Source: Candidatus Limnocylindria bacterium
GTDB taxonomy: Bacteria > Chloroflexota > Limnocylindria > P2-11E
Direction: 5' to 3'
Length of the DNA stretch: 41,705 bases
Assembly: GCA_038324015.1 (NCBI GenBank)
Contig: JBBQHN010000003.1
Location: forward strand, 1 to 41,705
The notes under the pieces: model-generated
Databases searched by the model: none
What the model saw: the letters and a program-made list of their open reading frames with translations, nothing else
Told to the model about the DNA's origin: nothing
Shown: positions 1,043 to 41,026 of the stretch, piece by piece
How the letters are laid out: every line of letters begins with the position of its first letter
Position numbering within the stretch: the first letter of the stretch is position 1
Made by a program: the position numbers and the translations under genes

Positions 1043-1046
1043 CGCG

Positions 1047-2078: not shown

Positions 2079-2105
2079 GTGGACCACCCGCTTTCCGACT
2101 TCAAT

Positions 2106-3074: not shown

Positions 3075-4654
3075 ACCTTGGGCAGTCGCCCGCTGACGTC
3101 AGGCGCGGCCAGTGCCGATGCATCGGCGCCGAAGACCTGCTGCTGAGCCGCGCGATATCCCTTCTTCGCCTTGTCCTTCCCGAAGGTGCGCTCGGCGTCC
3201 TCGAAGATCTGCGACACCAGCATCGCGAGGTACGGGACGGCCTGCGATTCGGGAACGTTCTCGCGATCGAGCGCCTGTGCGTCGATGCGGTCGTCGACGA
3301 TCGGCAGCGGCCGGTCGATCGGCTCGGCCTGCTCGTCAACGCGCATCAGGAGGTTCGCCATGCGGTCATCGAGCCGGCCCTTTCCGTAGGTACCGCTGTT
3401 GTACTCGGCGAGCAGCGCGTTCGAGAACGACGCGAGCTGGCCCGCGCGTCCAACGCCGGCGCCCGGCGCGGCGTCCGCGGCAGTGGCGGCCGTCGGGAGC
3501 GACGCGTCCTTTGGGGCCTCCTCCTTCTTGAGGAAGCCGAAGAGACCCTTCTTCTTCTCCTCGACCGGCGCGGGTGCCTGCATCTCGGGCGCCATGCGGG
3601 ACCACTCGCTGATGCGGTCGGTCGCCACCGGCGGTGGCTCGACCGGAACGGGCGCTGCCGGCGCCGGCGCGAACACGCCGCTCAATGCCGCAAGACGCTC
3701 GTCCTGCGCGGCTGGGATGTCGACTGGCGACAGCGCGGGCGCGATCTCCGGCTCGACGACCGGCGGGCTCATCCGCGCGTCGAGGGCCGCCGCGAGATCG
3801 GCGCGGAGATCAGGCTGCGGTGTCTCCCAGTGCTGCGCGGGCGCCGGGTCCCAGGTCTCTGCTGGCGCGGGCGGAGCAGGCTGCTCCCAGCTTTGGCCGA
3901 GCGGCTCCGGTGACGACCAGCGTTCCGGCTCAGCGGCGGGAGCGGGCTCCGGCTCGGCGGCGGGAGCGACGTACAAGGGTGCGGGTTCAGGAACCCAGGC
4001 GGGCGCTTCCGGCGCCGGAGCGACCCACACGGGTGCGGGCGGGCTCCACGGTTCCGGCATTGCAACAGGCTCGAGTGCCGGCGGCGGGTAGGCGGGCTGC
4101 GCCTGCTCAGCCGCGGGCTCGAGGACATCAATGAATCCGGTGTCGACCAGCGCCGCGAGGGCCGCGCGGGTCGCGAGCTTGCCCGTCTTCAGGTGATCAG
4201 CGACGCCCTGTACGTCGCGATCGCCATTGACCGCAAGCAGCGTCCGCCACTGGTCCGGCTCGAGCGTGATGTTGCCTTTCTCCGCAGCGCGCTCGGAGAG
4301 ACGGAAACGCGAACGGTCGTCAGGTATGACCTTGCGGACCGCGACGATACGGTCGCGCTCCAGGACGGCTTTGTCGAGCAGCTGGTCGAGGTCGCCCGAG
4401 AGATTCGAAGCGGGGCTCTCGTTCCAGGGGATGAACTCGAAGGCGCCGACCGACACCGCGAAGATCGCGCCGAGCGCGGGCTCACCGGTGTCCTCGCTGG
4501 CGATGGCCGCGACGAGCCGGCCGCCATCGAAGCCGAGCGTGCCGCCAGTGGAGTCGGTCCCGCGGACCTCGAGCTGTCCCGTCTTGTTCGTCGAGTGGAT
4601 GAGCTGGACGACCGTCTCGAGCGGGAAGGAGTCGAGCTCCCCACGCAATGTCAT
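3071..4654 (-). CDS. DUF4388 (PatA-N-like) domain protein with a long Pro/Ala/Glu-rich linker and an unknown C-terminal domain
   Basis: N-terminus LRGELDSFPLETVVQLIHSTNKTGQLEV...FDGGRLVAA...GAFEF matches the DUF4388 pattern. ATGA overlap with malK. Confidence 0.75.
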   Translation of the reverse strand: MTLRGELDSFPLETVVQLIHSTNKTGQLEVRGTDSTGGTLGFDGGRLVAAIASEDTGEPALGAIFAVSVGAFEFIPWNESPASNLSGDLDQLLDKAVLERDRIVAVRKVIPDDRSRFRLSERAAEKGNITLEPDQWRTLLAVNGDRDVQGVADHLKTGKLATRAALAALVDTGFIDVLEPAAEQAQPAYPPPALEPVAMPEPWSPPAPVWVAPAPEAPAWVPEPAPLYVAPAAEPEPAPAAEPERWSSPEPLGQSWEQPAPPAPAETWDPAPAQHWETPQPDLRADLAAALDARMSPPVVEPEIAPALSPVDIPAAQDERLAALSGVFAPAPAAPVPVEPPPVATDRISEWSRMAPEMQAPAPVEEKKKGLFGFLKKEEAPKDASLPTAATAADAAPGAGVGRAGQLASFSNALLAEYNSGTYGKGRLDDRMANLLMRVDEQAEPIDRPLPIVDDRIDAQALDRENVPESQAVPYLAMLVSQIFEDAERTFGKDKAKKGYRAAQQQVFGADASALAAPDVSGRLPKV

Positions 4655-5739
4655 GCGATGGCCTCGCCAGTCGTTTTGTCGAATACGTGGATCTTCGAGC
4701 GGTCGAAGCCGATCTTGAGCGTCGCTCCGGGCTGCGTCTGGGTACGAGTGTCGACGCGGGCGACGAACGTCTGGCCGCCGGCCGAGAGATGGAGCTGGAA
4801 CTCGTTGCCCAGGAACTCGACGACCTCGACCTTCGCGTCGACGGGGATGTTATTGCTCTGGTCGGGCCGCACACCGGCGTCGATGTCCTCGGGACGGATC
4901 CCGACGATCACCTCGCGGCCGGTCGAGCGTCCGCTCCCACCCGAGAGCGGCGTCTGGAAGAATCCGGCGTCCGCGACGGGCGACTCCGCTGAACCCGAGA
5001 GCTTCGCGGGGAAGAAGTTCATGGCGGGCGATCCGATGAAGCCGGCGACGAAGATGTTCGCAGGCTTCGCGTGCAGGTTCTCCGGCGTGTCGATCTGCTG
5101 CAGGAGGCCGTCCTTCATCACCGCGATGCGGTCACCCATCGTCATCGCCTCTACCTGGTCGTGTGTGACGTACACGGTCGTGCGCTTGATGCGCTGATGC
5201 AGCTTCTGCAGCTGCGCCCGCGTATCGATGCGCAGCGCCGCGTCAAGGTTGGAGAGCGGCTCGTCCATCAGGAACACCGCGGGCTCGCGCGCGATCGCGC
5301 GACCGACGGCCACGCGCTGGCGCTGACCACCGGAGAGCTCCTTCGGCTTGCGCTTGAGCAGCTTCTGGAGGCCAAGCATCTCGCCGACCTCGGCGACCCG
5401 GCGGTCGATCTCGGTCTTGTCCATGCCGCGGAGCTTCAGGCCGAAGGCGATGTTGTCGAAGACCGTCATGTGGGGATAGAGCGCGTAGTTCTGGAAGACC
5501 ATGGCGATGTCCCGATCCTTCGGCGCGACGTCGTTCACGAGGCGCTCGCCGATGAAGATGTCGCCACTTGTCTGCTCTTCAAGGCCGGCGATCATCCGGA
5601 GGGCCGTGGTCTTGCCGCAGCCCGAGGGGCCGACGAGCACGAGGAACTCCTCGTCCTTCACCTGGATCGAGAGGTCGTTCACCGCGAACACCGACTCGCC
5701 GAACTTCTTGGTCACGTGATCGAACGTGACTGTGGCCAT
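4651..5739 (-). CDS. Carbohydrate ABC transporter ATP-binding subunit (MalK/MsiK/UgpC family)
   Basis: GPSGCGKTT, VFQNYALYPHM, LSGGQRQR, FLMDEPLSNLD, VTHDQ, FVAGFIGSPAMN, C-terminal TOBE region (GIRPED). Confidence 0.95.
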   Translation of the reverse strand: MATVTFDHVTKKFGESVFAVNDLSIQVKDEEFLVLVGPSGCGKTTALRMIAGLEEQTSGDIFIGERLVNDVAPKDRDIAMVFQNYALYPHMTVFDNIAFGLKLRGMDKTEIDRRVAEVGEMLGLQKLLKRKPKELSGGQRQRVAVGRAIAREPAVFLMDEPLSNLDAALRIDTRAQLQKLHQRIKRTTVYVTHDQVEAMTMGDRIAVMKDGLLQQIDTPENLHAKPANIFVAGFIGSPAMNFFPAKLSGSAESPVADAGFFQTPLSGGSGRSTGREVIVGIRPEDIDAGVRPDQSNNIPVDAKVEVVEFLGNEFQLHLSAGGQTFVARVDTRTQTQPGATLKIGFDRSKIHVFDKTTGEAIA

Positions 5740-5775: not shown

Positions 5776-6309
5776 TCACGGGAGGTCGATGAGCAGCCTC
5801 GTGAGCGATGGCCGTCGCGGCCCCTGCTCGGCCGGTCCGATGAGGCGCGCGCGGATCGCGTCGGATCTCGAGATGAGGGCACCCGTAACGAGGCGCCCGA
5901 GGACCCGGATACGGAACGCGACGGCGCCGGGTGGTGGCTGCAGCGCGACCCGGAGCTGCCGGTCGAGGCCGACGCGCACGAACGGCGAGTCGACGGTCGC
6001 GAGCTGGCGCGAGCGCCGATCTGACACCGCGTAGTAGGCGACACGGACGAACGCTTCGGCGACATCGGGATCGTCCACCGCGAGCTCGACCGTCAGCTCC
6101 ACCGGGCTACTCGCGGGACCGAGCGGATGCAACAGACCTTCGACGCCCCAGGCGCGGCCGGCCGGGATCCCGATGATCAGTCCTCCGGCATCCTGATCGA
6201 GGACGCCGCGCGGCGTCGTGCGCCGGAACGGCCCGCCGGGATCCGCGGACGCGGGCGCTGCCGAGGACACGACCACGACGACAGCGATAAGAAGGACGGC
6301 CCGGCGCAT
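5776..6309 (-). CDS. Hypothetical secreted protein
   Basis: Signal-peptide-like N-terminus MRRAVLLIAVVVVVSSAAPASA-D. Fills the intergenic gap. TAGCGT -10 box 6 nt upstream of the ATG. Confidence 0.65.
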   Translation of the reverse strand: MRRAVLLIAVVVVVSSAAPASADPGGPFRRTTPRGVLDQDAGGLIIGIPAGRAWGVEGLLHPLGPASSPVELTVELAVDDPDVAEAFVRVAYYAVSDRRSRQLATVDSPFVRVGLDRQLRVALQPPPGAVAFRIRVLGRLVTGALISRSDAIRARLIGPAEQGPRRPSLTRLLIDLP

Positions 6310-6381: not shown

Positions 6382-9348
6382 CTAGGCGAACTCGATCTCC
6401 CACGTACCGATCTCAAATGCCTCGAGGGTCGCCGCCGCCGAGCCGTAGCGCAGCTCGAGCGGCGCCGCGGTCCGCACGACGTCGAGTCCGGTATTGCCGA
6501 GCTCGAGCTCGCCCTCGCGAAGATCGAGCGGACGTGACGTGCGGACCGGACGCGCGAAACGCAGGGTCGTGCGCGCGACATCCTTGCCTGGATTCACGAG
6601 CCGGATGACGATGCGATCCGGTGTGCGCGCCCGGATCGCGGAGAGCGTCACTGCGGGATCGCCGTCGAGGAAGCAGAACGAGCGCTCCTCGCCAGCGCCC
6701 GTGCCGAGCCAGGCCGGCGAGAGGAACTCGCGGATCGTTCGCGCGGCCTCAGGCACGCCGATCGTCTCGCTCAGCGGCACGACGCAGTAGCGAAAGGTCA
6801 TCTCGCCGAGGCACTGCGCGGACGGTGTCTCGAGGCGCGGGCCGGCGTCGCCCTTCCGCTCCGGGAGGTCACGGCGCGAGAGCCAGCCGACCGAGCGGAA
6901 CAATGTGACCGCGATGGCGCTCCCGTCGCTCTGGACCGAGTACTCGCGAAGACCGTCGGCCCCGACGGCGATGCCAGAGCCACCGGACCGCACAGCCACC
7001 AGATCGTGGAAGCAGCGCTCAGGCGTCGGCGGCTCGACCCAGCCGCGCTTGCGCGGGGCCCGGTTCGATCGCTCCAGCCAGGCGAAGCCGGCACCGGCCG
7101 TGTGCGTCGCGGTCCGCAGGCCGGTGTCGAAGACGACCTTCAGCCGGTGATCGCGTGCCGCGTTGGTGACGGTCGCGCTGACATCGACCTGCGATGCGCC
7201 CGCGTCGAGCGAGATGACGAATCGGACACGGTTGTCGACGAGCTCGGGCCGCCGCGCGAGACGGTCGTCACGGAGCGATGGCGGGAGCCGCAGCACGACG
7301 TCGACCGTGACGAGCGCGCGATCACCCTCGACGCGCGTCGCTCGCCGGCCCACGAGCCCCCTCGATCCGATCGTCGGACCGGCGTACGAGTACGTGTACA
7401 CGTCGCCGCGGTCGCCCTCGTCGATGAGCAGGTTCTGCCGCGGGCTCCGGGTCTCGGTCGCGCGATCGATCACGGTGAAGCTCCCGTCCTCTTCGACCTC
7501 GACGCGCAGCCGCTCGTTCACGATGACGCCGGCCTCGGGCGCGCTCACGCCGTCGGTCCGTGCCCGCACCGCCGGTGTGACGCCGAGCGGCGCACAGCTG
7601 ATCACCGTGAGGCGGCCGTTGATCGGCACCACCGCGTCGCGCACCCAGGGCAGGCCGCTCCACACCACCGGCGCGCCGCCGACGCCCGAGAGCGTCGTGC
7701 ACAGCTCGCTCACGACGCGCTCGCCACCGGCCTGCACCATGGCAAAGCGCGGCGTCATGTCCAGGTCGTGCACCGCGTCGGCCGAGCAGCCGCAGATCGA
7801 GTCGTGCGGCTGGTTCGCGAGAAGCGTGCGCCAGAGCGAACGGATCGTCTCGCTCGCCGTACCGCCCGCGAACGCGTCCAACGGCTCGCAGCGCTCCAGC
7901 AGCAGCCGTTCGCAGGCCGCGTTCTCCTGCTTGATCCACATGCGCGTCGAGTTGACCCCGCGGAGGATCGGCCGGTACTTGCCGGAGACCATCTCCCCGA
8001 TGAAGACCCCACGCGGCGCGGGCAGCGCGGCGACGAACTCCTCGAGCGTCGCGATGCGCGCCCTCGTCCGCGGCGCCACCCTGCCGATCGCGTCGACCGC
8101 GTCTGGGAGCGTCTCGAACGCCTGGGTATGGTCGTCATCGACCATGAACAGGAGCGCATCGCCCGCCGCGTATGGCGCGGTGGTCGCCATGATCCGCGGC
8201 AGCATCGCGCGCACACGGCGCGGGATGTCCGCGACCGGGGTGCCGCCATCGGCGACGAGACCGAGCGCGTTGTTGTAGTGGCCGACCTGGTGCGACGCGA
8301 CGACCCGGTCGCCCGACGGCGCTTCCCACTTGAATTCGCTCCCGAGCGCCACGCCCTCATCACCGACCCCGCGGGCGAACACATAGGAGTCGTAGCCAAA
8401 CCCGCGGAGGAGCTGCGGCATCTGCGCCGGGTGGCCGAATGGGTCTGCGACATACGCGACGCGCGAGGCGCGCCCGAGCGAGCCCGCGACGCGCAAGCCC
8501 TCCTGGAAGTTGCGGATCAGCGATTCACCGGCGACGAGGAGCAGATCCGCGAGGACGTACCAGGGACCGATGAGCAGCCGGTCGGCACGGACGAGCGCTT
8601 CGATGCGCGGCCGGTCCTCCGGCCGGACAGCGAGGTGATCCTCGAGCGGGATCGTCTGCCCATCGAAAGTGAATGAGCGGAACCGCGGCTCCCGCTCGAG
8701 CAGATCGAGCAACGCGGAGACCATCGGGACGAGCCGCCCACGGAACGCCTCGAAGCGCTCGTACCACTCCCGGTCCCAGTGGGTGTGCGGCACCACGAAG
8801 ATGCGCCACGGGAAAAGACGCAGCACCCACGCGACGATCGGCGGCGCCGCGAGCCCCCAGGCGATGCCGACGATCGCGCCGCCGAGGGCATCGAGCGGGT
8901 AATGCACGCCGACGAAGACCCGCGACAGCCCGACGGCCGCCGCGAGCAGGATCGCGAACGGGCGGAAACGCGGAAAGCACTGGCCGAAGGCGACGGCCGC
9001 GCCGAACGCCAGTGCCGTATCTCCCGACGGGAACGAGTAGGACGAAGGCTCGGGGATGATCGCGGGCAGCGCATCCGGGATCGCGAGGAACGGCCGCGGC
9101 CGCTGCACGATGCGCTTGATGGTCTCGGCCGTGGCCCACGCGAGGACCATGCCGATGAAGATCGTGAGCGCGACCCAGAGCCCGCGCCTGCCGCCGCGGG
9201 TGCGCCAGAGCACGATGCCGAGCAGCCACCACTGGAGTCCCTGGAAGTTCAGGTACGTGACGACGATGGCGACGACCGCGATGAGCGGATTCCGCGCCGA
9301 GACGATCGCCGTGTAGAGGTGCTGGTCGAACGCAAAGAGCTGATCCAT
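6382..9348 (-). CDS. Fusion: N-terminal membrane PAP2-family phosphatase + C-terminal GH38 alpha-mannosidase (MngB-like), ~988 aa
   Basis: PAP2: KRIVQRPRP (C1), FPSGD (C2 variant), SRVFVGVHYPLD (C3), about five hydrophobic helices. GH38: VPHTHWDREWY, FDGQ, IGPWYV, DPFGH, HDSICGCS. ATG at 9348 overlaps the DedA stop (TGATG). Confidence 0.9.
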   Translation of the reverse strand: MDQLFAFDQHLYTAIVSARNPLIAVVAIVVTYLNFQGLQWWLLGIVLWRTRGGRRGLWVALTIFIGMVLAWATAETIKRIVQRPRPFLAIPDALPAIIPEPSSYSFPSGDTALAFGAAVAFGQCFPRFRPFAILLAAAVGLSRVFVGVHYPLDALGGAIVGIAWGLAAPPIVAWVLRLFPWRIFVVPHTHWDREWYERFEAFRGRLVPMVSALLDLLEREPRFRSFTFDGQTIPLEDHLAVRPEDRPRIEALVRADRLLIGPWYVLADLLLVAGESLIRNFQEGLRVAGSLGRASRVAYVADPFGHPAQMPQLLRGFGYDSYVFARGVGDEGVALGSEFKWEAPSGDRVVASHQVGHYNNALGLVADGGTPVADIPRRVRAMLPRIMATTAPYAAGDALLFMVDDDHTQAFETLPDAVDAIGRVAPRTRARIATLEEFVAALPAPRGVFIGEMVSGKYRPILRGVNSTRMWIKQENAACERLLLERCEPLDAFAGGTASETIRSLWRTLLANQPHDSICGCSADAVHDLDMTPRFAMVQAGGERVVSELCTTLSGVGGAPVVWSGLPWVRDAVVPINGRLTVISCAPLGVTPAVRARTDGVSAPEAGVIVNERLRVEVEEDGSFTVIDRATETRSPRQNLLIDEGDRGDVYTYSYAGPTIGSRGLVGRRATRVEGDRALVTVDVVLRLPPSLRDDRLARRPELVDNRVRFVISLDAGASQVDVSATVTNAARDHRLKVVFDTGLRTATHTAGAGFAWLERSNRAPRKRGWVEPPTPERCFHDLVAVRSGGSGIAVGADGLREYSVQSDGSAIAVTLFRSVGWLSRRDLPERKGDAGPRLETPSAQCLGEMTFRYCVVPLSETIGVPEAARTIREFLSPAWLGTGAGEERSFCFLDGDPAVTLSAIRARTPDRIVIRLVNPGKDVARTTLRFARPVRTSRPLDLREGELELGNTGLDVVRTAAPLELRYGSAAATLEAFEIGTWEIEFA

Positions 9349-9983
9349 CAGGGCTTGCGGAGGTGACGCCAGATGAAAAGGCCGACCGCTGCCACGATGA
9401 CGGCGGCGATGATGTAGTCGAGCCCCGCAAGGTCGTGCTTGATATCGGTCCAGTTGGCACCGAGCAGCATGCCGCCCCAGACGAGGAGCATGACCCACGG
9501 GATCGTGCCGAGGATCGAGAACGCGACGAACCGCCAGAGCGGCATCCGCGCGATACCCGCGGGCACCGAGATGAACGTCCGCACGATCGGGAGCATGCGC
9601 GAGAAGAAGACGGTCGCGTCACCCCAGCGCTTGAAGTGGCGGTCCGCGACATCGAGGTCATGGGTCGAGATGAGCACGTACCTCCCGTATCGCTCGAGCA
9701 GCGGCCGGCCGCCGTAGGCGCCGACCGCATATGCGACGAGCGATCCGAGCGTGTTCCCGGCGACGCCCGCAATGACCGCGCCCCAATATGACCAGAGCTG
9801 CCCGGTCAGCGGCTCGCGTACCGCCTGCGCGACGGAGAACCCCGCCAGCGGCAGGATCAGCTCGCTCGGCACGGGGATCGCGGCGCTCTCGATGGCCATC
9901 GCGACGACGACGCCGAGGTAGCCGAACGTCGCGTAGGCCCGCTCCAGCAATGGCAAGACGTACGCGTCGATGGCCAGAAGCAC
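9348..9983 (-). CDS. DedA family membrane protein
   Basis: IESAAIPVPSELILPLAGF, GSLVAYAVG, FKRWG, FFSRMLPIVRTFISVPAG. GTG at 9983 chosen because the longer ORF-track start overlaps the divergent gene. Confidence 0.93.
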   Translation of the reverse strand: MLLAIDAYVLPLLERAYATFGYLGVVVAMAIESAAIPVPSELILPLAGFSVAQAVREPLTGQLWSYWGAVIAGVAGNTLGSLVAYAVGAYGGRPLLERYGRYVLISTHDLDVADRHFKRWGDATVFFSRMLPIVRTFISVPAGIARMPLWRFVAFSILGTIPWVMLLVWGGMLLGANWTDIKHDLAGLDYIIAAVIVAAVGLFIWRHLRKP

Positions 9984-10046
9984 CCCGTTATCATCGGGCC
10001 TGAGGCAGACGGGTGGGTCCGGAAGAAAAAGACCGGGGAGACGCCC
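9984..10046. promoter_or_regulatory. Short divergent promoter region with overlapping -10-like hexamers
   Basis: TATCAT on + (9989-9994). GATGAT on - (9990-9995), 6 nt before GTG 9983. GGGGAG SD before ATG 10047. Confidence 0.45.
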
Positions 10047-11252
10047 ATGCGCCACGCGACCGCTTCGGCCCTCGACGACCGGCTCCGCGACGGTCTCGCA
10101 CGCGTCGGGAGCGCAGATCTGCTCGTCGGGATACCGAGCTTCAACAACGCCGGCACGGTCGGGCACGTCGCCCGCACGGTGGCGGAAGGTCTCCGCGCGC
10201 ACTTTCCCGATGCGACACCCGTGATCGTCAACGCCGACGGCGGGTCAAAGGACGGAACGAGCGACGTGGTCGCGCGTTCGACCGGCGCTATCCCGACCAT
10301 CACCGGCGCGTACGTCGGTCCGCCCGGCAAAGGCTCCGCGTTCCGTGCGATCTTCGAGGTCGCGACCGAGCTCGGCGTACAGGCCTGCGCCGTGGTGGAT
10401 AGCGATCTCCGCAGCATCACGCCCGAGTGGATCAAGCGGCTCATCTCGCCGGTCCGCGAACGCAGCGCCGACTACGTCACGCCGCTCTACGCACGTCACA
10501 AGTTCGACGGCACGATCACGAACAATGTGGCCTACCCGCTCACGCGCGCGCTGTACGGCCTGCGCCTGCGCCAGCCGATCGGCGGCGAGTTCGGCTTCAG
10601 TCCCGAGCTGGCCCGCGACTTCCTCGATGGCACAGCGCTCGGAGGCACAGACGTCTGGACCACGGACGTCGCGCGCTTCGGCATCGATATCTACATGACG
10701 ACTACGGCGCTCGCGACCGGACGCCGCGCGGTCCAGGCGTTCCTTGGCGCGAAGATCCACGACCCCAAGGATCCGGGATCGGACCTGGCGCCGATGTTCA
10801 CGCAGGTCGTGAGCACGCTGTTCCGCCTGGCGATCGCGAACGCCGACCAGTGGAGGGACGTGCGCGGATCGAAAGCCCCGACGATCGTCGGCTCGATCGA
10901 CCCCGTCGAGCCCGAGGCCGTGAACGCGAGCGTGGACATCCTCCGGCAGAAGTACGCCGCCGGTCGCATCGAGCATCAGACGACGTGGGACGAGATCCTG
11001 AGCAGCCCGGTGCCGGATCACCTCGACGACGCGGCGTGGGCCCGCATCCTGTTCGACTTCGTGCTTGCGTCGAAGAAGCGGCCCGCCGACATCCAGCGCT
11101 ACGTCACGGCGCTCGTCCCGCTGTACTTCCTGAAGGTCGCCGCCTTCATCGATGAGGCGAAGGATCTCGATACGGATCACGCCGAAGCGCTCGTCGAGCG
11201 CCAAGCATCGACGTTCGAACAGCTGAAGCCCGAGCTGGCGAAGCGCTGGTGA
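10047..11252 (+). CDS. GT-A glycosyltransferase, glucosylglycerate/mannosylglycerate synthase (Ggs/Mgs)-like
   Basis: VGIPSFNNAGT, NADGGSKDGT, PGKGSA, VVDSDLRSITPEW, PLYARHKFDGTITN, LRQPIGGEFG, FGIDIYMT, KIHDPKDP: the pattern of single-step glycerate glycosyltransferases. Confidence 0.75.
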   Translation: MRHATASALDDRLRDGLARVGSADLLVGIPSFNNAGTVGHVARTVAEGLRAHFPDATPVIVNADGGSKDGTSDVVARSTGAIPTITGAYVGPPGKGSAFRAIFEVATELGVQACAVVDSDLRSITPEWIKRLISPVRERSADYVTPLYARHKFDGTITNNVAYPLTRALYGLRLRQPIGGEFGFSPELARDFLDGTALGGTDVWTTDVARFGIDIYMTTTALATGRRAVQAFLGAKIHDPKDPGSDLAPMFTQVVSTLFRLAIANADQWRDVRGSKAPTIVGSIDPVEPEAVNASVDILRQKYAAGRIEHQTTWDEILSSPVPDHLDDAAWARILFDFVLASKKRPADIQRYVTALVPLYFLKVAAFIDEAKDLDTDHAEALVERQASTFEQLKPELAKRW

Positions 11253-13357
11253 CCGTCGCCATGAAGGAGGATGGCCTCGTCCTCGTCACCGAGGACGACG
11301 GCAGCCTCCCGTTGGGTACCTCCACCGCGCTCGGGCTTTACTACCACGACACCCAGTACCTCTCGGGCTACTCGCTGCGCATCAACGGTCAGGCGCCGGC
11401 GCTCCTCTCGGCCAACACCGAGGAGAACTACGTCGGCGCGTTCCAGCTCGCGAACCGTCCCGCGACCCTCGAGGACGGGTCGATCCTCGCGTCCCAGTCG
11501 CTCTCCGTACGGCGCACCCGGTTCCTGGCCGACGGCCTGCGCGAGCGCGTCGGGATCCTGAACTGCAATCCGGGAAAGGTCCGGCTGCGCATCGAGCTCG
11601 AGTTCGACGCGTCGTTCCAGGACCTGTTCGCGGTGCGCGGCTACCGCGGGCTCGCGCGTACGACGGAGGAGACGCCGCTCGAGATCATCCCCAATGGCAT
11701 CCGCTTCTCGCGGCTCGGCCGCGACGCCGTGCGCCGCACCACCGACATCACGATGCGGCCCGCGCCCGACCAGATCAGCGGACGCACGTTCGTCCTCGAG
11801 CGCGAGCTCGCGCCACAGGAGATCGTGACCTACGAGCTGGCCGTCGTGCCGCGGGAGGACGGCGTGGGCGCGGCACCGGCGCCCCGCGATTTCGACGAGG
11901 CGCTCGACGCGTTGAACGCTCGCTACCGCAAGTTCCTGCGTGGCTGCGCGGCGTACACGACCAGCTCGGAGTCGCTCGATGACGAGCTCGTGCTGCGAAG
12001 TGCGCTCGATCTACGCGCACTCATCGACGAAGAGGAGACCGGCCTCTACGTGACCGCCGGGATCCCGTGGTACGCGGTGCCGTTCGGACGCGACGGGCTC
12101 ATCGCGGCCTATCAAACCCTGGCCTGGAACCCCGATATCGCGAAGGGCACGCTGCGCCTGCTCGCGAAGTACCAGGGCACCAAGGTGGACCGCTTCACCG
12201 AAGAAGAGCCCGGCAAGATCTTCCACGAGCTCCGGCGCGGCGAGCTCGCGCGCCTCGGTGAGGTCCCGCACCGTCCGTACTACGGCACGGTCGACGCGAC
12301 CCCGCTCTTCGCGATGCTGTTCGCCGAGACCGTGAAGTGGACGGGCGATCGGGTCTTGTGGCGCGAGCTGCTGCCGGCGGCCGAGCGCGCGATCGCGTGG
12401 TGCGACACCTACGGCGACGCGGACGGCGACGGCTACATCGAGTACGGCGCGAGCCCGAGCGATCTCCGCAATCACGGCTGGAAGGACTCGGCGAATTCGC
12501 TGTCCGACCCCGACGGCCAGCCAGCGGCGCTTCCCGCGGCGCTCGTCGAGGCGCAGGCGTACGTGTATGCGGCGAAGTGCGGCGTCGCGGACCTCTACGC
12601 GCTCGATGGCGACGACGAGCGCGCGGTAAAGCTGCGCGCCGAGGCCACAGCGCTCGCGGAGCGATTCGAGCGCGACTTCTGGATGGAGAACGAGGGCTGC
12701 TACGCCCAGGCGCTGGACGGGAATAAGAAGCAGGTGTCCGCCGTCACGAGCAACGCCGGGCACGCGCTCTGGGCCGGGATCGCGCGGCCAGACCGCGCGA
12801 AGCGCGTCGTCGAACGGCTCATGGCGCCGGACATGTTCAGCGGCTGGGGCGTGCGCACCCTGTCATCGACCTACCCGACCTACAACCCGATGAGCTACCA
12901 CAACGGCTCGGTGTGGCCGCACGACAACTCGCTGATCGCCCAGGGCTTCGTGCGCTACGGCTTCCGCGAAGAAGCGAACGCGATCATCGAAGCGCTCATC
13001 GAGGCCGGCAAGCGCTTCCCGAACGCACGCCTGCCGGAGCTGTTCTGCGGCTTCCAGCGCGACCTGCGGTTCTCGTCTCGACCAGCCGACTACCTCGTAT
13101 CGTGCATCCCGCAAGCGTGGTCCGCAGGGATGGTGTTCCTCTGTTTGCGGTCGCTCCTCGGTCTCGAACCGGACCTCGAGCGCCGGCGCGTCACGGTCGA
13201 CCCGGCGCTCCCGGTGTGGCTCGACACCATCGAGGTGCAGCATCTTCGCGCGTATGACTCGACCATCTCGTTCCGTGTCCGCCGTTCGGGTCGCAGCATC
13301 ACGGTGACCGGCGGCGGATCGCGCGTGGTGCGCGCACCCGCGCCGATCGCCACGTGA
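11249..13357 (+). CDS. Amylo-alpha-1,6-glucosidase / glycogen-debranching-like (alpha/alpha)6 glycoside hydrolase
   Basis: GLYYHDTQYLS, AGIPWYAVPFGRD, EEPGKIFHELR, YYGTVDATPLF, GWKDS, YHNGSVWPHDN, RLPELFCGF. GTGA overlap; alternative ATG at 11261. Confidence 0.88.
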   Translation: MTVAMKEDGLVLVTEDDGSLPLGTSTALGLYYHDTQYLSGYSLRINGQAPALLSANTEENYVGAFQLANRPATLEDGSILASQSLSVRRTRFLADGLRERVGILNCNPGKVRLRIELEFDASFQDLFAVRGYRGLARTTEETPLEIIPNGIRFSRLGRDAVRRTTDITMRPAPDQISGRTFVLERELAPQEIVTYELAVVPREDGVGAAPAPRDFDEALDALNARYRKFLRGCAAYTTSSESLDDELVLRSALDLRALIDEEETGLYVTAGIPWYAVPFGRDGLIAAYQTLAWNPDIAKGTLRLLAKYQGTKVDRFTEEEPGKIFHELRRGELARLGEVPHRPYYGTVDATPLFAMLFAETVKWTGDRVLWRELLPAAERAIAWCDTYGDADGDGYIEYGASPSDLRNHGWKDSANSLSDPDGQPAALPAALVEAQAYVYAAKCGVADLYALDGDDERAVKLRAEATALAERFERDFWMENEGCYAQALDGNKKQVSAVTSNAGHALWAGIARPDRAKRVVERLMAPDMFSGWGVRTLSSTYPTYNPMSYHNGSVWPHDNSLIAQGFVRYGFREEANAIIEALIEAGKRFPNARLPELFCGFQRDLRFSSRPADYLVSCIPQAWSAGMVFLCLRSLLGLEPDLERRRVTVDPALPVWLDTIEVQHLRAYDSTISFRVRRSGRSITVTGGGSRVVRAPAPIAT

Positions 13358-14556
13358 GGCAGAAGAAGCAGCGCGTCCTCTTCCTCCATTACACCGCGCC
13401 GTCGATCCTCGGCGGCGTCGAGCATGTGATGGGCATCCACGCGCAGGCCGCGAAGGACGCGGGCGATCGCGTCGCGATCGTCGCCGGACGGGGCACCGCA
13501 CGCGGGATCCCGGTCGTGATGATCCCGGAGCTCGACTCGCAGCACCCCGCGGTGCTCCGCGACCGGGCGGCGCTCGCGCGCGGAGAGGTCACACCGGAGC
13601 ATGCCGCGCTGGTCGCACGGATCACCCGCGCGTTGCGGCCACACGTACGTCGCGCCGATCGCGTGGTCGTGCACAACGTGTTCACGATGACGCTGAACGC
13701 CGCGCTGACCGAAGCGCTGTTCGCGCTGGCCGCTGAGCACGAGGGCGTGTTCGTCGCCTGGACCCACGATCTTGGCTGGAAGGACGGGCAATACACGGCG
13801 CAGCGGCATGAGGGTCGCCCGTGGTCCCTCTTCGCCACCGCAGCCCCCGGCGTCCGCTACGTCGCGATATCGGAGAAGGCCCGGGCCGAGCTCTCCGCAC
13901 TCACCGGTCTGGCGCGCGACAAGATCACGCTCGTGCCCAACGGGGTCGACCGCATCGCGGTGCTCGGACTATCGGCCCGCGGCGTGCGGCTCGCGAAGGC
14001 GTTCGAGCTCTTCGACGCCGATCCGCTGCTGCTGCTTCCGGTCAGGATGACGCGCCGCAAGCGGATCGAGATCGCGATCGATGCGCTCGCGATCCTGCGC
14101 ACGCGCTACCCGCTCGCAGCGCTCGTTGTGACGGGTGGACCGGGCGCGCACAACCCAACGAACGCCGCGTACGAGCAGGAGCTCAAGAAGCGGGCGGGGC
14201 CCGGCGTGCATCTCTTCCACACCGAGGGTGTCCGCCTGGGTGCGCGAGAGCTGGCCGATCTCTACGGCCTCGCAGATGCCCTCGTGCTGCCGTCCGAGAA
14301 CGAGGGCTTCGACCTCCCGATGCTCGAGGCGGGCCTGCGACGCATGCCGATCATCTGCACCGACATCTCGGCACTCCGCGAGGTCGCCGGCGATGACGCG
14401 ACGTACGTACCGCTGAGCGGTGATGGCAGGTCGTTCGCCGAGGCGATCAAGACTCGGCTTCTCGCCGACCCGATCGCACGGCTGCACCGGCGGGCGCGGC
14501 AGAACGAGTGGCCGAGGATCCTGGCCGAGCTCGTGCTACCTGTCATACACGGATGA
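13354..14556 (+). CDS. GT4 (GT-B) glycosyltransferase, MggS-like
   Basis: GGVE, WTHDLGW, VPNGVD, PVRMTRRKRIE, LPSENEGFDLPMLEAG (EX7E). GTGA overlap. Confidence 0.85.
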   Translation: MRQKKQRVLFLHYTAPSILGGVEHVMGIHAQAAKDAGDRVAIVAGRGTARGIPVVMIPELDSQHPAVLRDRAALARGEVTPEHAALVARITRALRPHVRRADRVVVHNVFTMTLNAALTEALFALAAEHEGVFVAWTHDLGWKDGQYTAQRHEGRPWSLFATAAPGVRYVAISEKARAELSALTGLARDKITLVPNGVDRIAVLGLSARGVRLAKAFELFDADPLLLLPVRMTRRKRIEIAIDALAILRTRYPLAALVVTGGPGAHNPTNAAYEQELKKRAGPGVHLFHTEGVRLGARELADLYGLADALVLPSENEGFDLPMLEAGLRRMPIICTDISALREVAGDDATYVPLSGDGRSFAEAIKTRLLADPIARLHRRARQNEWPRILAELVLPVIHG

Positions 14557-16340
14557 AGTGCCTCGTCGTCATCACCGATGCCACGCGTGACAAGCCCCTT
14601 ATCGACGTCGCCGCAGCGCTCGCGGGCACGGCTGACATCGTCCTCGCGTCGATCATCGAGGTGCCGGAGGGCGAGACGCTCGCCTCCGCGCAGCCGCAGG
14701 CCCGTGCCCGACGCAAGGATCTCGTCGCGCTCGCGGCTCCGCTCACGGTCCGGCCGATCGTGACCGTCGCGCGGCGGGGCTGGGCCGCGGTCGTCGAGGC
14801 CGCCCACGACGAACACCCCGACCTTCTGCTCATCGGCTGGCGTCGGCCGGGTTGGGATTACCTCGGGACGACGATGGAGGACATCCTCCGCGACCCACCC
14901 TGCGACCTCGCGATCGTGAAGGGCCCGGCGGGACGCGGGCGGCGGATCCTCGTTCCGGTGCGCGGCGGCCGCTACGCGGAGCTCGCTGCGAAGCTCGGCG
15001 TCGGGCTCGCTCGCGCACGCAAGGGCACGGTCACGCTCCTCCATGTCGTCCCCGCCGGCGCCACGAGGCGGTCTGGCGCGACCCTCTACCAGCTGGTCGG
15101 TGAGCACGCCTTCGACGAGCGTGTCGACGAGCTCCTCACGCGCGTCGGTGACGCGACGAAAGTCATCGTCGACGAGCTCAGCCGCCACGACCTCATCGTC
15201 TTCGGCGCGAGCGGCGGAGCCGCACCGCTCGGACCGATCGGCCAGGAGATCATCGCCGAGGCACGTTCAGCGATCATCGTTCGCACCCACACGCCGGTCG
15301 CATCGAACGTGTTCCTGTCGCCCTCACCGCTTCCCACCGACCGCACGGAACGGAGCAAGGCGATCGGCGAGCTCGTCGACAAGTGGTTCGTCGAGAACAC
15401 GTTCACCAGTGCGGAATTCGCGAATCTCGCGGCCCTCGTCGCCCTGAAGGAGAAGCAGGGCCTTCGTATCTCGGTCGCGCTGCCGACGCTCAACGAAGAG
15501 GAGACCGTCGCGAAGGTCATCACCGTTGTCCGCAGCCGGCTGATGGAGCGCGTCCACCTGGTGGACGAGCTCATCGTCATCGACTCGAACTCGACGGACC
15601 GGACCCGCGAGATCGTGCGCGGGCTCGGCGTTCCGGTGTACATCCATCAGGAGCTGCTGCCGGAGGTCGGTCCCGGACGAGGCAAGGGCGAGGCGCTCTG
15701 GAAGAGCCTCTCGGTCACGACGGGCGATATCGTGGTCTGGGTGGACACGGACGTGTCCAACTTCCACCCGACATTCGTGTATGGGCTGCTCGGCCCGCTC
15801 CTGGTCCGGCCCGAGATCGCGTTCACCAAGGCCTTCTACCGGCGTCCACTCGATGTCGGCTGGCAGCTGCAGCCGACCGGCGGCGGCCGCGTCACCGAGC
15901 TCGCGGCGCGCCCGATCCTCAACATGTTCTTCCCGGAGCTCTCGGGGATGATCCAACCGCTGTCCGGCGAGCAGGCTGGTCGCCGCAGCGTCCTCGAGCG
16001 GCTCCCGTTCTTCAGCGGGTACGGGATCGAGACCGGGCTGCTCATCGACGTGCTGCGCGACTCGGGTCTCAAGTCCATCGCGCAGGTCGACATGAAGCAG
16101 CGCATCCACCGCAACCAGTCGCTGCTCGCGCTCACGAAGATGTCGTTCGAGATCCTGCAGGTGGCGATGAAGCGGCTCGGCGACGCCCGCGGCGAGAGCC
16201 TGCTCGACGCCGCGAACCTGACGATGAAGCTGATCTCGCCGACGGCCGAGGGATTCCATCTCGAGGTCCAGGACGTGAGCATCGTCGAGCGGCCACCGAT
16301 GATCTCGGTGCCGTCGTACCGGGATCGCGCCCGCCGCTAG
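14553..16340 (+). CDS. gpgS: Tandem universal-stress-protein domains fused to glucosyl-3-phosphoglycerate synthase (GT81)
   Basis: N-terminal USP-like repeats (HPDLLLIGW...LGTTMEDILRDPPCDLAIVK; RILVPVRGG...HDLIVFGAS). C-terminal LPTLNEEETV, GKGEALWKSL, VDTD, GGGRVTELAARP, QPLSGE, GYGIE, RIHRNQ. ATGA overlap at 14553. Confidence 0.85.
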   Translation: MKCLVVITDATRDKPLIDVAAALAGTADIVLASIIEVPEGETLASAQPQARARRKDLVALAAPLTVRPIVTVARRGWAAVVEAAHDEHPDLLLIGWRRPGWDYLGTTMEDILRDPPCDLAIVKGPAGRGRRILVPVRGGRYAELAAKLGVGLARARKGTVTLLHVVPAGATRRSGATLYQLVGEHAFDERVDELLTRVGDATKVIVDELSRHDLIVFGASGGAAPLGPIGQEIIAEARSAIIVRTHTPVASNVFLSPSPLPTDRTERSKAIGELVDKWFVENTFTSAEFANLAALVALKEKQGLRISVALPTLNEEETVAKVITVVRSRLMERVHLVDELIVIDSNSTDRTREIVRGLGVPVYIHQELLPEVGPGRGKGEALWKSLSVTTGDIVVWVDTDVSNFHPTFVYGLLGPLLVRPEIAFTKAFYRRPLDVGWQLQPTGGGRVTELAARPILNMFFPELSGMIQPLSGEQAGRRSVLERLPFFSGYGIETGLLIDVLRDSGLKSIAQVDMKQRIHRNQSLLALTKMSFEILQVAMKRLGDARGESLLDAANLTMKLISPTAEGFHLEVQDVSIVERPPMISVPSYRDRARR

Positions 16341-32043: not shown

Positions 32044-32048
32044 GCCGG

Positions 32049-32120
32049 TGAGGGGCGAGGGATTCGAACCCTCGACCAAGGGATTAAAAGTCCCCTGCTC
32101 TACCGCTGAGCTAGCCCCCC
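32049..32120 (-). tRNA. tRNA-Lys (anticodon UUU); CCA not encoded
   Basis: GGGGGGC TA GCTC AGCGGTA GAGC A GGGGA CTTTTAA TCCCT ... GAGGG TTCGAAT CCCTC GCCCCTC A: full cloverleaf, followed by CCG. Confidence 0.95.
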
Positions 32121-32190
32121 GCGCTGCCCGCGTGATGATTCTCGCATTAGCCTTACCGGCGACAGCGGACCCGGCGTAGCCTGTGGCGTA

Positions 32191-40298: not shown

Positions 40299-40348
40299 CT
40301 GGCGAAAAGTATGCTGCCTCGCCGCCCTCGGCGCGCTAGCATCGAGCC

Positions 40349-41020: not shown

Positions 41021-41026
41021 CGGGGT

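What the first reader, a model, noticed from the sequence alone, without database searches (positions are those of the whole stretch)
6382..16340. Candidate undescribed system: divergent locus combining glycosyl-glycerate synthesis, hydrolysis and a DedA/PAP2 membrane module
Seen: two tightly coupled operons (TGATG/GTGA/ATGA overlaps) diverge from a 63-bp spacer. Left arm: dedA then PAP2-GH38. Right arm: Ggs/Mgs-like GT, GDE-like glucosidase, GT4, USP-USP-GpgS. Established: GpgS (two-step) and Ggs (one-step) both make glucosylglycerate; MggS-type GT4 adds mannose to give mannosylglucosylglycerate in Thermotogales; E. coli MngB (GH38) cleaves phospho-mannosylglycerate. Inference: one locus builds GG/MGG and strips the mannose (GH38) and glucose (GDE-like) again. 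It is also tied to membrane lipid-phosphate handling (DedA + PAP2), which known osmolyte clusters do not require. This could mean a lipid-linked or exported product. I know of no description of this combination.
Basis: partly seen in the sequence, partly recalled or inferred. Interest (0 to 1): 0.85.

Follow-up and report, generated by a model that had tools for sequence, protein, structure and literature searches.

The report
Glucosylglycerate cluster beside DedA and PAP2-mannosidase fusion
A soil and freshwater Chloroflexota lineage joins an otherwise ordinary gene set for the stress solute glucosylglycerate to two sugar-cleaving enzymes, one of them fused to a membrane lipid phosphatase in a form not found in print, but the chemistry is inferred only.

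Summary
Two translationally coupled operons diverge from a 63-bp spacer. The minus arm holds a UptA-like dedA and a PAP2-GH38 fusion. The plus arm holds an MGS-fold glycosyltransferase (GT), a GH176 hydrolase, a GT4 and USP-USP-GpgS.

- The core pair, MGS/Ggs-like GT plus GpgS, is a widespread and already known kind of glucosylglycerate (GG) cluster. In other phyla the same GT sits beside GpgS-like, MpgP-family phosphatase, glycerate-kinase-like and MscS-like genes.
- DedA next to PAP2 is also a published module, read as polyprenyl-diphosphate phosphatase plus polyprenyl-phosphate flippase.

Three things are specific to one order of Ca. Limnocylindria.
- GH176 and GT4 lie between the two GG synthases.
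- GH38 is fused behind a PAP2 domain whose active-site motifs are invariant, but with PSGD in place of PSGH.
- Both arms are linked.

The fusion was found in 25 of 26 genomes of that order. It was in none of 14 sister-family genomes and in no other class among 401 sampled Chloroflexota.

[quoted passage not shown] Mannose as the second sugar, both hydrolase substrates and any lipid link are inference. No phosphatase for the GpgS route was identified.

The parts
9348..9983 (-). dedA, a DedA/VTT family membrane protein that is UptA-like (211 aa)
   Evidence: Pfam VTT_dom 80.6 bits. NCBIfam UptA NF052604 163.4 bits, below the cut-off of 250. GTG start at 9983 and TGATG overlap with the next gene.
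8815..9348 (-). PAP2 membrane phosphatase domain of the fusion (residues 1-178). Motifs: KRIVQRPRP, PSGD, SRVFVGVHYPLD
   Evidence: Pfam PAP2 73 bits. Motifs read. PSGD in 116 of 117 full-length homologs. K78, R85, P86, P107-D110, R143, H149 and D153 are invariant in 20 sequences of 49-92% identity. AF2 gives helices 2-19, 21-50, 54-81, 109-124, 126-146 and 151-176.
6382..8814 (-). GH38 alpha-mannosidase part of the fusion (residues 179-988). It starts a few residues after the last transmembrane helix
   Evidence: Pfam GH38 N, middle and C domains. PDB 3lvt/5kbp 1.4e-70 and 2wyh 3.8e-64. HTHWDREW in 115 of 117 homologs. DPFGH invariant.
9984..10046 (.). 63-bp divergent intergenic spacer with a conserved GGTATCATCGGGC-like element next to the dedA start
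   Evidence: Sequence. Alignment of 16 spacers. No full sigma-70 consensus was found.
10047..11252 (+). GT-A glycosyltransferase with a C-terminal helical domain, of the mannosylglycerate-synthase/Ggs type (401 aa)
   Evidence: Profile against PDB: GpgS 2.3e-8, R. marinus MGS 4.3e-5. AF2 pLDDT 88. Foldseek top hit 2bo7_A, E 3.1e-13, TM 0.71/0.75 over 406 columns. JGI names 6 of 120 listed homologs 'glucosylglycerate synthase'.
11249..13357 (+). GH176 glycoside hydrolase (GDE_N_bis plus an (alpha/alpha)6 MGH1-like domain, 702 aa)
   Evidence: Pfam. PDB 7vma 4.8e-97, aligned over query residues 50-644. GH176 assignment of 7VMA taken from PMC13671375.
13354..14556 (+). GT4 retaining glycosyltransferase (400 aa)
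   Evidence: Pfam Glycos_transf_1 and Glyco_transf_4. Best NCBIfam hit is MggS at 53.6 bits, far below the cut-off of 640. It is 41% identical over its full length to a GT4 directly upstream of USP-GpgS in an Anaerolineae MAG.
14553..15374 (+). Tandem universal-stress-protein (USP) domains fused in front of GpgS
   Evidence: Pfam Usp in two stretches, 60.5 bits. The fusion is conserved in Chloroflexota relatives.
15375..16340 (+). Glucosyl-3-phosphoglycerate synthase (GpgS, actinobacterial type) domain
   Evidence: NCBIfam equivalog NF010496 at 379 bits against a cut-off of 262, matching residues 290-601 of the 610-aa ORF.
5776..6309 (-). Small secreted protein of no known family (177 aa, signal-peptide-like N-terminus), 72 bp downstream of PAP2-GH38. 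It may belong to the minus arm
   Evidence: No Pfam hit. Translation. Conserved in this position in relatives at 38-90% identity.
4651..5739 (-). MalK/UgpC-type ABC ATPase with no cognate permease nearby. It is a conserved left flank within the family
   Evidence: Pfam ABC_tran, OB_MalK and TOBE_2. NCBIfam UgpC subfamily 470.6 bits against a cut-off of 432. Synteny.

Best explanation
The plus arm is a glucosylglycerate (GG) solute operon with built-in turnover. USP-USP-GpgS makes glucosyl-3-phosphoglycerate from an NDP-glucose and 3-phosphoglycerate. A phosphatase that I did not identify would release GG. The MGS-fold GT makes a hexosyl-glycerate in one step from an NDP-hexose and D-glycerate; GG is the most likely product. 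The GT4 adds a second hexose to GG or its phosphate, giving a mannosyl-GG-like diglycoside. GH176, from a family with alpha-1,2-glucosidase activity, cleaves the Glc-alpha-1,2 bond. The minus arm supplies the matching alpha-mannosidase (GH38). [quoted passage not shown] A UptA-like DedA is encoded next to it. This is the known polyprenyl-diphosphate phosphatase plus polyprenyl-phosphate flippase pair, kept intact when GH38 was fused on. Both arms start from one 63-bp region and are probably co-regulated. The USP domains would gate synthesis against hydrolysis. Shown here: gene order, domain content, family or fold assignments, conservation and distribution. Inferred: every substrate, the identity of the second sugar, the membrane topology, co-regulation and the functional link between the arms.
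For: GpgS is above its curated cut-off (379 against 262). The GT-A gives its best full-length fold match to R. marinus mannosylglycerate synthase (TM 0.71/0.75). Its only sequence-profile PDB hits are GpgS, MGS and MpgS. GT-A and GpgS are adjacent in all 20 class-level loci examined. I examined 71 GT-A loci from other lineages. Of these, 32 have a GpgS_Meth-like GT (366 bits, cut-off 700) and 20 have an MpgP-family phosphatase (TIGR01486, 220 bits against 164.75). A further 18 have a glycerate-2-kinase-like MOFRL protein, and 40 have a small MscS-like membrane protein. All lie within 6 kb. GH176 matches 7VMA at 4.8e-97, and the family has a demonstrated alpha-1,2-glucosidase (PMC13671375). The best NCBIfam hit of the GT4 is MggS, and JGI names 1 of 120 listed homologs MggS. 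GT4 homologs of 38-42% identity lie next to GT-A or GpgS in 4 of 71 other loci. Orthologous GH176 (60% identity or more), and GT4, lie in the cluster only in loci of the clade that has the PAP2-GH38 fusion. The two-arm layout holds in 8 of 8 family-level loci, in 9 loci named Limnocylindria/Chloroflexota and in a third genus. It persists with two inserted GTPase genes in the sister family. GH38 catalytic-type motifs and all PAP2 motif residues are invariant. The loops at 49-56, 126-130 and 177-182 carry the positive charges (read). That places GH38 inside the cell.
Against: No enzyme was assayed. GT4 (53.6 against 640) and GH38 (356 against 1138) fall far short of the MggS and MngB models. No GH38, PAP2 or DedA lies near GT-A in any of the 71 loci outside this clade. 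The link between the arms therefore rests on one clade, where synteny may simply be inherited. DedA-PAP2 is a general module. The cluster's DedA is the better-scoring of two DedA genes in 4 of 5 genomes and the only one in the fifth. No DUF368 transporter was found in any of the 5, so this DedA may be a housekeeping gene. No GpgP was identified. The 69%-complete genome has no full HAD-IIB hit, and its one histidine-phosphatase protein is only 30% identical to the one in the Anaerolineae cluster. A hydrolase translationally coupled between two synthases would run a futile cycle unless it is regulated after translation.
Confidence: 0.45

Rival explanations
1. The arms are two unrelated modules that are neighbours by descent. 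The plus arm is a GG cluster. The minus arm is an envelope module: it recycles the lipid carrier (PAP2 outside, DedA flipping polyprenyl phosphate back). Its fused cytoplasmic GH38 trims or salvages mannose-containing lipid-linked or free oligosaccharides. GG is not involved.
For: DedA-PAP2 adjacency and fusion are published as a lipid-carrier recycling pair (passages). In sister family f4 the DedA ortholog sits next to a stand-alone PAP2 with a His in motif C2, far from the GG genes, in 2 of 2 genomes examined. The closest stand-alone PAP2 homologs in other classes have PSGH, and DedA lies within about 1.1 kb in 2 of 3. None of 71 GT-A loci outside the clade has DedA, PAP2 or GH38. The cluster's DedA is the best or the only DedA, and no DUF368 was found in 5 genomes.
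Against: The short divergent spacer (about 35-100 bp by tblastn edges) is kept while the fusion protein diverges to about 60% identity. The arms stay within 4.6 kb even at 49-51% identity. The GH38 fusion, the in-cluster GH176 and the GT4 all occur in the same clade only. These genomes also have a canonical BacA/UppP and one to three other PAP2 genes, so this PAP2 is not needed for housekeeping.
Confidence: 0.3
2. GG is a primer, not an end product. The GT4 and partners build a GG-primed oligosaccharide or glycolipid, like the early steps of mycobacterial methylglucose lipopolysaccharide. Alternatively they build a lipid-linked or exported glycoside. DedA and PAP2 serve its lipid carrier, and the hydrolases trim it.
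For: The GpgS is of the actinobacterial type, which primes MGLP in mycobacteria (abstracts of PMC3240985 and PMC2674218). An Anaerolineae cluster holds three GT4 genes, USP-GpgS, a histidine phosphatase of the mycobacterial GpgP superfamily and GT-A. The hydrolase is physically fused to a lipid phosphatase.
Against: The cluster has no methyltransferase, acyltransferase, polyprenyl-phosphate glycosyltransferase or flippase/exporter. GH38 is predicted to be cytoplasmic and the PAP2 site external. The best weak NCBIfam hits of the GT4 include enzymes with small soluble acceptors: MggS, MshA and BshA.
Confidence: 0.15
3. The two hydrolases are catabolic enzymes for imported alpha-glucosides (kojibiose-type) and mannosides. 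They are not for self-made solutes. The region is a general sugar island.
For: In the sister family the minus arm abuts a sugar ABC transporter, a GH176 paralog and two GH13 genes. A MalK/UgpC-type ATPase and, further out, a ROK kinase flank the cluster here. The unfused GH38 of G030 has neighbouring open frames of ABC-transporter-like sizes, but I did not annotate them.
Against: GH176 is translationally coupled between two glycosyltransferases (GTGA overlaps). Its orthologs occur only inside the GG cluster, and the scattered copies are paralogs of about 40% identity. No permease or binding protein is in this window's cluster.
Confidence: 0.1

Closest known systems
Persephonella marina ggs-gpgS-gpgP operon-like cluster, with two routes to glucosylglycerate (Fernandes et al. 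2007). I recall this paper; it is not held.
   Same: A one-step Ggs-type GT is encoded beside a GpgS. In other phyla the GT-A family found here sits beside a GpgS_Meth-like GT and an MpgP-family phosphatase.
   Different: Here the GpgS is the actinobacterial type fused to two USP domains. No phosphatase is in the cluster. GH176 and GT4 are inserted. A DedA and PAP2-GH38 arm diverges from it. I could not compare directly with the P. marina sequence.
Mannosylglucosylglycerate pathways of Petrotoga mobilis and Rhodopirellula baltica: GpgS, MggA, MggB, MggS (PMC3736172; I read the abstract and sections 4, 8, 25 plus passages).
   Same: GpgS together with a GT4 that could extend GG or GPG. MggA and MggS are GT4 enzymes.
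   Different: The GT4 here scores 53.6 bits against the MggS cut-off of 640. No MggB-like phosphatase was seen. That paper describes no hydrolases in the locus and no membrane module in the sections I read.
Mycobacterium hassiacum GG accumulation and the glucosylglycerate hydrolase GgH, GH63 (PMC5381378 and PMC6608630; search listing and abstracts only).
   Same: A synthase plus a dedicated hydrolase that removes the solute when stress ends. GH176 and GH63 share the two-domain (alpha/alpha)6 architecture, and the authors suggest one clan for both.
   Different: A different GH family. phmmer against PDB gave no GgH hit. Here the hydrolase is inside the synthesis operon.
GH176: Arthrobacter humicola A8F5 alpha-1,2-glucosidase and TgAMY/7VMA (PMC13671375; abstract, sections 9 and 10, passages).
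   Same: Strong full-domain similarity to 7VMA (4.8e-97). Alpha-1,2 specificity would fit Glc-alpha-1,2-glycerate or an alpha-1,2-linked diglycoside.
   Different: The substrate here is unknown. The paper reports at least six large GH176 clusters of unknown function. I did not map the kojibiose-binding residues.
DedA (UptA) with PAP2 lipid phosphatase, adjacent or fused (Roney and Rudner preprint 10.1101/2022.02.03.479048, passages; Sit et al. PMC9876793, passages).
   Same: dedA lies directly next to and is translationally coupled with a PAP2 gene. UptA is the best NCBIfam hit.
   Different: The PAP2 carries a C-terminal GH38, has Asp in place of the motif-C2 His, and the pair faces a GG operon.
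E. coli MngB, a GH38 2-O-(6-phospho-mannosyl)-D-glycerate hydrolase.
   Same: It is the best NCBIfam model for the GH38 part. JGI names 3 of 120 listed homologs with the MngB enzyme name.
   Different: 356 bits against a cut-off of 1138. No PTS context was seen. The protein is membrane-tethered.

Membership tests
GpgS (glucosyl-3-phosphoglycerate synthase, NCBIfam NF010496 equivalog) | Whole-protein HMM score above the curated cut-off | tested here: met
   379 bits against 262, with profile positions 5-305 of 307 matched.
GpgS | Forms glucosyl-3-phosphoglycerate from NDP-glucose and 3-phosphoglycerate | not testable with these tools
   Needs an enzyme assay.
One-step hexosyl-glycerate synthase (R. 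marinus MGS / P. marina Ggs type) | GT-A domain plus C-terminal helical domain, matching MGS over its whole length | tested here: met
   Foldseek top hit 2bo7_A: E 3.1e-13, TM 0.71/0.75, 406 columns, 17% identity. GpgS structures match the GT domain only, at TMq about 0.46.
One-step hexosyl-glycerate synthase (MGS/Ggs type) | Sequence-family membership (Pfam MGS_GT PF21969, or significant similarity to MGS) | tested here: inconclusive
   No PF21969 hit at E<=0.01. phmmer against PDB found nothing. A profile of 12 homologs hits MGS at 4.3e-5 and GpgS at 2.3e-8.
One-step hexosyl-glycerate synthase (MGS/Ggs type) | Orthology to the characterised P. marina Ggs | not tested
The only lead is that JGI names 6 of 120 listed homologs 'glucosylglycerate synthase'.
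MggS / MggA (GT4 mannosyltransferases that make MGG or MGPG) | NCBIfam NF041101 score above the cut-off | tested here: not met
   53.6 bits against 640. It is the best hit, but only slightly above other GT4 models such as MSMEG_0565 at 46.3.
GH176 | Significant full-domain similarity to the founding member TgAMY (PDB 7VMA) | tested here: met
   E 4.8e-97, query residues 50-644 against chain residues 37-584. Pfam GDE_N_bis 152 bits.
GH176 | Catalytic acid, base and 'fixer' Asp (D427, E611, D287 in A8F5) conserved | tested here: inconclusive
   The acidic residues in the PFGRD, GWKDS and LPEL motifs are shared with 7VMA in the alignment. I could not map A8F5 numbering onto them.
MngB (GH38 mannosylglycerate hydrolase, NF007331) | Score above the curated cut-off | tested here: not met
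   355.8 bits against 1138.
GH38 alpha-mannosidase | N-terminal, middle and C-terminal GH38 domains and N-terminal metal/nucleophile motifs | tested here: met
   Pfam 111, 45 and 36 bits. HTHWDREW in 115 of 117. DPFGH invariant. The catalytic roles of these motifs are recalled, not tested.
PAP2 polyprenyl-diphosphate / lipid phosphatase (BcrC, PgpB, LpxE type) | Tripartite motif KX6RP, PSGH, SRX5HX3D | tested here: not met
   C1 and C3 are present and invariant. C2 is PSGD in 116 of 117 homologs and PSGY in one. The nearest stand-alone homologs have PSGH. The motif definition is recalled.
PAP2 polyprenyl-diphosphate / lipid phosphatase | NCBIfam equivalog score (SepP, undecaprenyl-diphosphate phosphatase, PgpB) | tested here: not met
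   61.6 against 250, 39.2 against 229 and 26.6 against 261. The Pfam PAP2 domain itself is met (73 against 27.2).
UptA (DedA-family undecaprenyl-phosphate transporter) | NCBIfam NF052604 score above the cut-off | tested here: not met
   163.4 bits against 250. It is the best hit, and the VTT domain is met at 80.6 against 33.9.
DedA-PAP2 lipid-carrier recycling module | dedA adjacent or fused to a PAP2 gene | tested here: met
   TGATG overlap. Conserved in all two-arm loci.

The most novel reading that the evidence does not exclude
The PAP2(PSGD)-GH38 fusion with its DedA partner is a single membrane machine that couples turnover of a mannosyl/glucosyl-glycerate glycoside to the polyprenyl-phosphate cycle. 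It could work in one of two ways. Either the glycoside, or a GG-headed glycolipid, is made on or handed to a lipid carrier and exported, with the altered PAP2 site releasing the carrier outside and GH38 trimming inside. Or it is a bacterial counterpart of the eukaryotic pairing of dolichyl-diphosphate phosphatase (PAP2 family) with cytosolic GH38 salvage of free oligosaccharides, recruited here to a stress-solute operon.
Probability: 0.15. Interest if true: 0.8.

Novelty: new variant of a known kind. Interest (0 to 1): 0.55.

Why it matters
Ca. Limnocylindria are uncultured Chloroflexota. Many metagenome proteins match this cluster closely. A defined GG-type solute cycle would give a testable handle on how they survive drying, salt or nitrogen stress. 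It would also propose substrates for three orphan groups: a GH176 clade, an MGS-fold GT family present in many phyla, and a USP-gated GpgS. The PAP2-GH38 fusion has an invariant His-to-Asp change in an otherwise intact active site. It is a compact test case for how a lipid phosphatase scaffold is reused. It could also show whether DedA-PAP2 pairs act outside cell-wall carrier recycling.

Tried and rejected
- The Fernandes 2007 and 2010 papers are not held. The P. marina and Petrotoga operon details are therefore recalled, and no characterised Ggs, MggA or MggS sequence could be aligned or placed in a tree.
- phmmer of GT-A against PDB found nothing. A profile was needed.
- Promoter and terminator scans of the spacer and both operon ends found no sigma-70 consensus. 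The only terminator-like site is weak and lies inside the start of the 177-aa gene.
- Search for a GpgP. The own genome has no full HAD-IIB hit. Its one His_Phos_1 protein reaches no NCBIfam cut-off and is only 30% identical to the phosphatase in the Anaerolineae cluster. The HAD gene at 22092..22739 is haloacid-dehalogenase-like. The phosphatase is unresolved.
- I considered the PAP2 domain as the missing GPG/MGPG phosphatase. I rejected this because the charge distribution puts its active site outside the cell.
- Sequencing runs: no RNA holder was listed. No reads were laid, so nothing can be said about expression.
- Literature searches. No paper holds both Limnocylindria and glucosylglycerate. 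None of the 10 listed papers for GH38/PAP2/fusion/mannosidase holds both GH38 and PAP2. Nothing relevant came up for Chloroflexi plus glucosylglycerate.
Table S2 and Fig. S11 of Roney and Rudner, Table 3 of Sit et al. and Table S3 of PMC3736172 could list related architectures that I did not see.

Full report
**What is there.** The window has 66-71% G+C. Named homologs place it in Chloroflexota, Ca. Limnocylindria. It is contig C3 of a 69%-complete assembly. The finding's anatomy holds.
- Minus strand: dedA runs 9348..9983 with a GTG start. It overlaps as TGATG with a 988-aa PAP2-GH38 fusion at 6382..9348.
- A 63-bp spacer follows.
- Plus strand: a 401-aa GT-A (10047..11252), a 702-aa GDE-like hydrolase (11249..13357), a GT4 (13354..14556) and USP-USP-GpgS. 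They are joined by GTGA, GTGA and ATGA overlaps.
- The last overlap puts the GpgS gene start at 14553, not 14508.
- Pfam and NCBIfam confirm every domain. Only GpgS passes a curated equivalog cut-off (379 against 262).
- Right flank: a convergent typA.
- Left flank: a 177-aa signal-peptide protein, a MalK/UgpC-type ATPase, a DUF4388 protein, a ROK kinase, gap and pgk.

**The first glycosyltransferase.**
- phmmer against PDB found nothing. A profile of 12 class-level homologs hits GpgS (2.3e-8), Rhodothermus mannosylglycerate synthase (4.3e-5) and MpgS (0.035), and no other family below E = 0.1.
- An AF2 model (pLDDT 88) has that mannosylglycerate synthase as its top Foldseek hit over the full length: TM 0.71/0.75 over 406 columns. 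GpgS structures cover only the GT domain.
- The family is large. At least 585 relatives turned up in one genome per species, across Nitrospirota, Pseudomonadota, Desulfobacterota-type lineages, Aminicenantes, Acidobacteriota, Armatimonadota, Planctomycetota and Actinomycetota, at 43-48% identity.
- I examined 71 of those loci that lack the two-arm layout, looking within 6 kb of the GT. 40 hold a small MscS-like membrane protein. 32 hold a 410-aa GT matching the Methanococcoides-type GpgS model over its full length (366 bits, cut-off 700). 20 hold an MpgP-family HAD-IIB phosphatase (220 against 164.75). 18 hold a glycerate-2-kinase-like MOFRL protein, sometimes fused to the HAD domain.
- This context is built around glycerate and glycosyl-phosphoglycerate. 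As far as I recall it matches the ggs-gpgS-gpgP arrangement of Persephonella marina, but that paper is not held.
- JGI names 6 of 120 listed close homologs 'glucosylglycerate synthase'.
- I therefore read the GT as a one-step hexosyl-glycerate synthase, most likely Ggs. The sugar specificity is not shown.

**The hydrolase and the GT4.**
- The GDE-like protein matches PDB 7VMA at 4.8e-97 over its catalytic and N-terminal domains.
- A 2026 JBC paper (PMC13671375) assigns 7VMA to GH176. It shows an Arthrobacter member to be a strict inverting alpha-1,2-glucosidase. It doubts the alpha-1,6 activity claimed for 7VMA and notes at least six large clusters of unknown function.
- GG is Glc-alpha-1,2-glycerate, and MGG is Man-alpha-1,2-Glc-alpha-1,2-glycerate (reference titles). 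A GH176 member acting on such bonds is plausible but untested.
- The best NCBIfam model for the GT4 is MggS, at 53.6 bits against a cut-off of 640. JGI names 1 of 120 listed homologs MggS.
- MggA and MggS are both GT4 enzymes.
- Independent support that this GT4 works with GpgS/GT-A comes from other lineages. Homologs of 38-42% identity lie next to GT-A in 4 of 71 other loci. In an Anaerolineae MAG the 41%-identical homolog sits directly upstream of USP-GpgS. That cluster also holds two more GT4 genes, a histidine phosphatase and GT-A.

**The minus arm.**
- DedA next to, or fused with, PAP2 is a published pattern. It is read as undecaprenyl-diphosphate phosphatase plus undecaprenyl-phosphate flippase (Roney and Rudner preprint; Sit et al.).
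- The DedA here is UptA-like but below the cut-off (163 against 250).
- The unusual piece is GH38 fused directly behind the last PAP2 helix.
- The PAP2 motifs C1 (KX6RP) and C3 (RX5HX3D) are invariant. C2 is PSGD in 116 of 117 full-length homologs, and also in the sister family at about 50% identity. The nearest stand-alone PAP2 homologs in other Chloroflexota classes have PSGH. The site is therefore conserved but altered, not decayed.
- Positive charges cluster in the loops at 49-56, 126-130 and 177-182, and AF2 gives six helices before GH38. This fits the usual PAP2 topology, with the active site outside and GH38 in the cytoplasm.
- The GH38 motifs HTHWDREW and DPFGH are conserved. MngB is the best NCBIfam model but far below its cut-off (356 against 1138).

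**Distribution.**
- The full divergent layout is present in 8 of 8 family-level loci with enough contig. It is also in 9 of the 80 genome-collection loci, all named Limnocylindria or Chloroflexota and some from the same assemblies as the handles. It occurs in a third genus as well.
- In the sister family the arms are separated by two dynamin-like GTPase genes (4.6 kb). There the minus arm abuts a sugar ABC transporter, a GH176 paralog and GH13 genes.
- In the other families of the class, 10 of 10 loci keep only GT-A plus (USP-)GpgS.
- The fusion was found in 23 of 24 and 2 of 2 genomes of the two families, and in 0 of 14 genomes of three other families, one of which has an unfused GH38. These tallies, and those, include the unpublished genomes G007 and G011. 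No other claim rests on them.
- In a sample of 401 Chloroflexota genomes only 3, all of this family, have the fusion, and 94 have GH38 matches that start at the GH38 boundary. The 5 I checked are unfused.
- Of the best 150 cluster representatives among 1.84 billion proteins, 2 full-length proteins and 4 fragments include the PAP2 part. Of the other 144, all but a few fragments or partial matches begin at the GH38 boundary.
- The ESM Atlas shows the fused clusters with Chloroflexota as the commonest phylum.
- In family f4 the DedA ortholog sits beside a stand-alone PAP2 with a C2 His, far from the GG genes, in 2 of 2 genomes. In f3 no PAP2 was detected beside it, in 2 of 2 genomes.
- These genomes also carry a BacA/UppP, one to three further PAP2 genes and usually a second DedA, and no DUF368 transporter was found.

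**Reading.**
- The plus-arm core is a known kind of GG cluster. Three things are new: the GH176-GT4 insertion, the USP-GpgS fusion (shared with other Chloroflexota and one locus labelled as a delta proteobacterium) and the linked DedA/PAP2(PSGD)-GH38 arm.
- The simplest model is a stress-gated synthesis and hydrolysis cycle of GG or a mannosyl-GG-like solute, with a membrane-tethered mannosidase (confidence 0.45). GG with the GgH hydrolase in Mycobacterium hassiacum is a precedent for such a pairing (abstracts only).
- The main rival is that the arms are separate modules kept together by descent (0.3). The link is seen in one clade only, and DedA-PAP2 has its own established role.
- A GG-primed polymer or lipid-linked product (0.15) and a purely catabolic role for the hydrolases (0.1) are not excluded.
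- The phosphatase for the GpgS route remains unidentified.

**Limits.**
- No expression data: no RNA holder was listed.
- No characterised Ggs, MggS or MggA sequences were available for trees.
- Supplementary tables of the cited papers were closed.
- I found no paper that describes this combination or a PAP2-GH38 fusion.

Noticed in passing
window 9984-10000, and the aligned spacers of L031-L038 and L052-L059: A GGTATCATCGGGC-like element directly next to the dedA GTG start is conserved across the genus and family, while the rest of the spacer varies in length and sequence. TATCAT resembles a -10 box for the plus arm. That would make the two arms' start regions overlap and leave dedA with almost no leader.
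   Followed up: partly
L080:2575-11946 (Anaerolineae MAG): This is a richer GG-type cluster. In order it holds an ABC permease, a GT4, a second GT4 (41% identical to the window's), USP-GpgS, a histidine phosphatase of the mycobacterial GpgP superfamily, a third GT4, GT-A and a DtxR-type regulator. It hints at GG-primed oligosaccharides in another Chloroflexota class.
   Followed up: partly
L060-L130 (GT-A loci from Nitrospirota, Burkholderiales, Desulfobacterota-type lineages, Aminicenantes and others): The MGS-fold GT family is about 45% identical across many phyla. It is usually followed by a small MscS-like membrane protein (40 of 71 loci). It is often flanked by a GpgS_Meth-like GT, an MpgP-family phosphatase and a MOFRL glycerate-kinase-like protein, which in one Burkholderiales locus (L064) is fused to a HAD domain. 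Seven loci also have GH13 proteins of about 650 and about 1000 aa.
   Followed up: partly
L131:13608-16891 and L132:3496-5274 (sister family, G025 and G026): Dynamin-like GTPase genes sit next to dedA in this family. In G025 two of them lie between dedA and GT-A. The one checked in G026 is directly upstream of dedA.
   Followed up: partly
window 2-2864, minus strand: pgk, gap and a ROK-family sugar kinase lie a few kb left of the cluster. They make 3-phosphoglycerate, which is the GpgS acceptor, and could phosphorylate released hexose. This may be coincidence.
   Followed up: no
window 5776-6309, minus strand: A 177-aa protein with a signal-peptide-like N-terminus and no Pfam family always follows PAP2-GH38, including in the sister family at 38-39% identity. 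Its function is unknown.
   Followed up: partly
window 3071-4654, minus strand: A 527-aa protein with an N-terminal DUF4388 domain overlaps the stop of the MalK-type ATPase gene. The pair is conserved with the cluster in the genus.
   Followed up: no
window 31375-32874 and 39896-41650, minus strand: Long ORFs of 499 and 584 aa with no Pfam hit. I did not check whether they are real genes.
   Followed up: no
window 18547-22095, minus strand: Two adjacent ABC exporter genes (fused membrane and ATPase halves) lie right of typA, followed by a haloacid-dehalogenase-type HAD, coaBC and coaX. No link to the cluster was seen.
   Followed up: no
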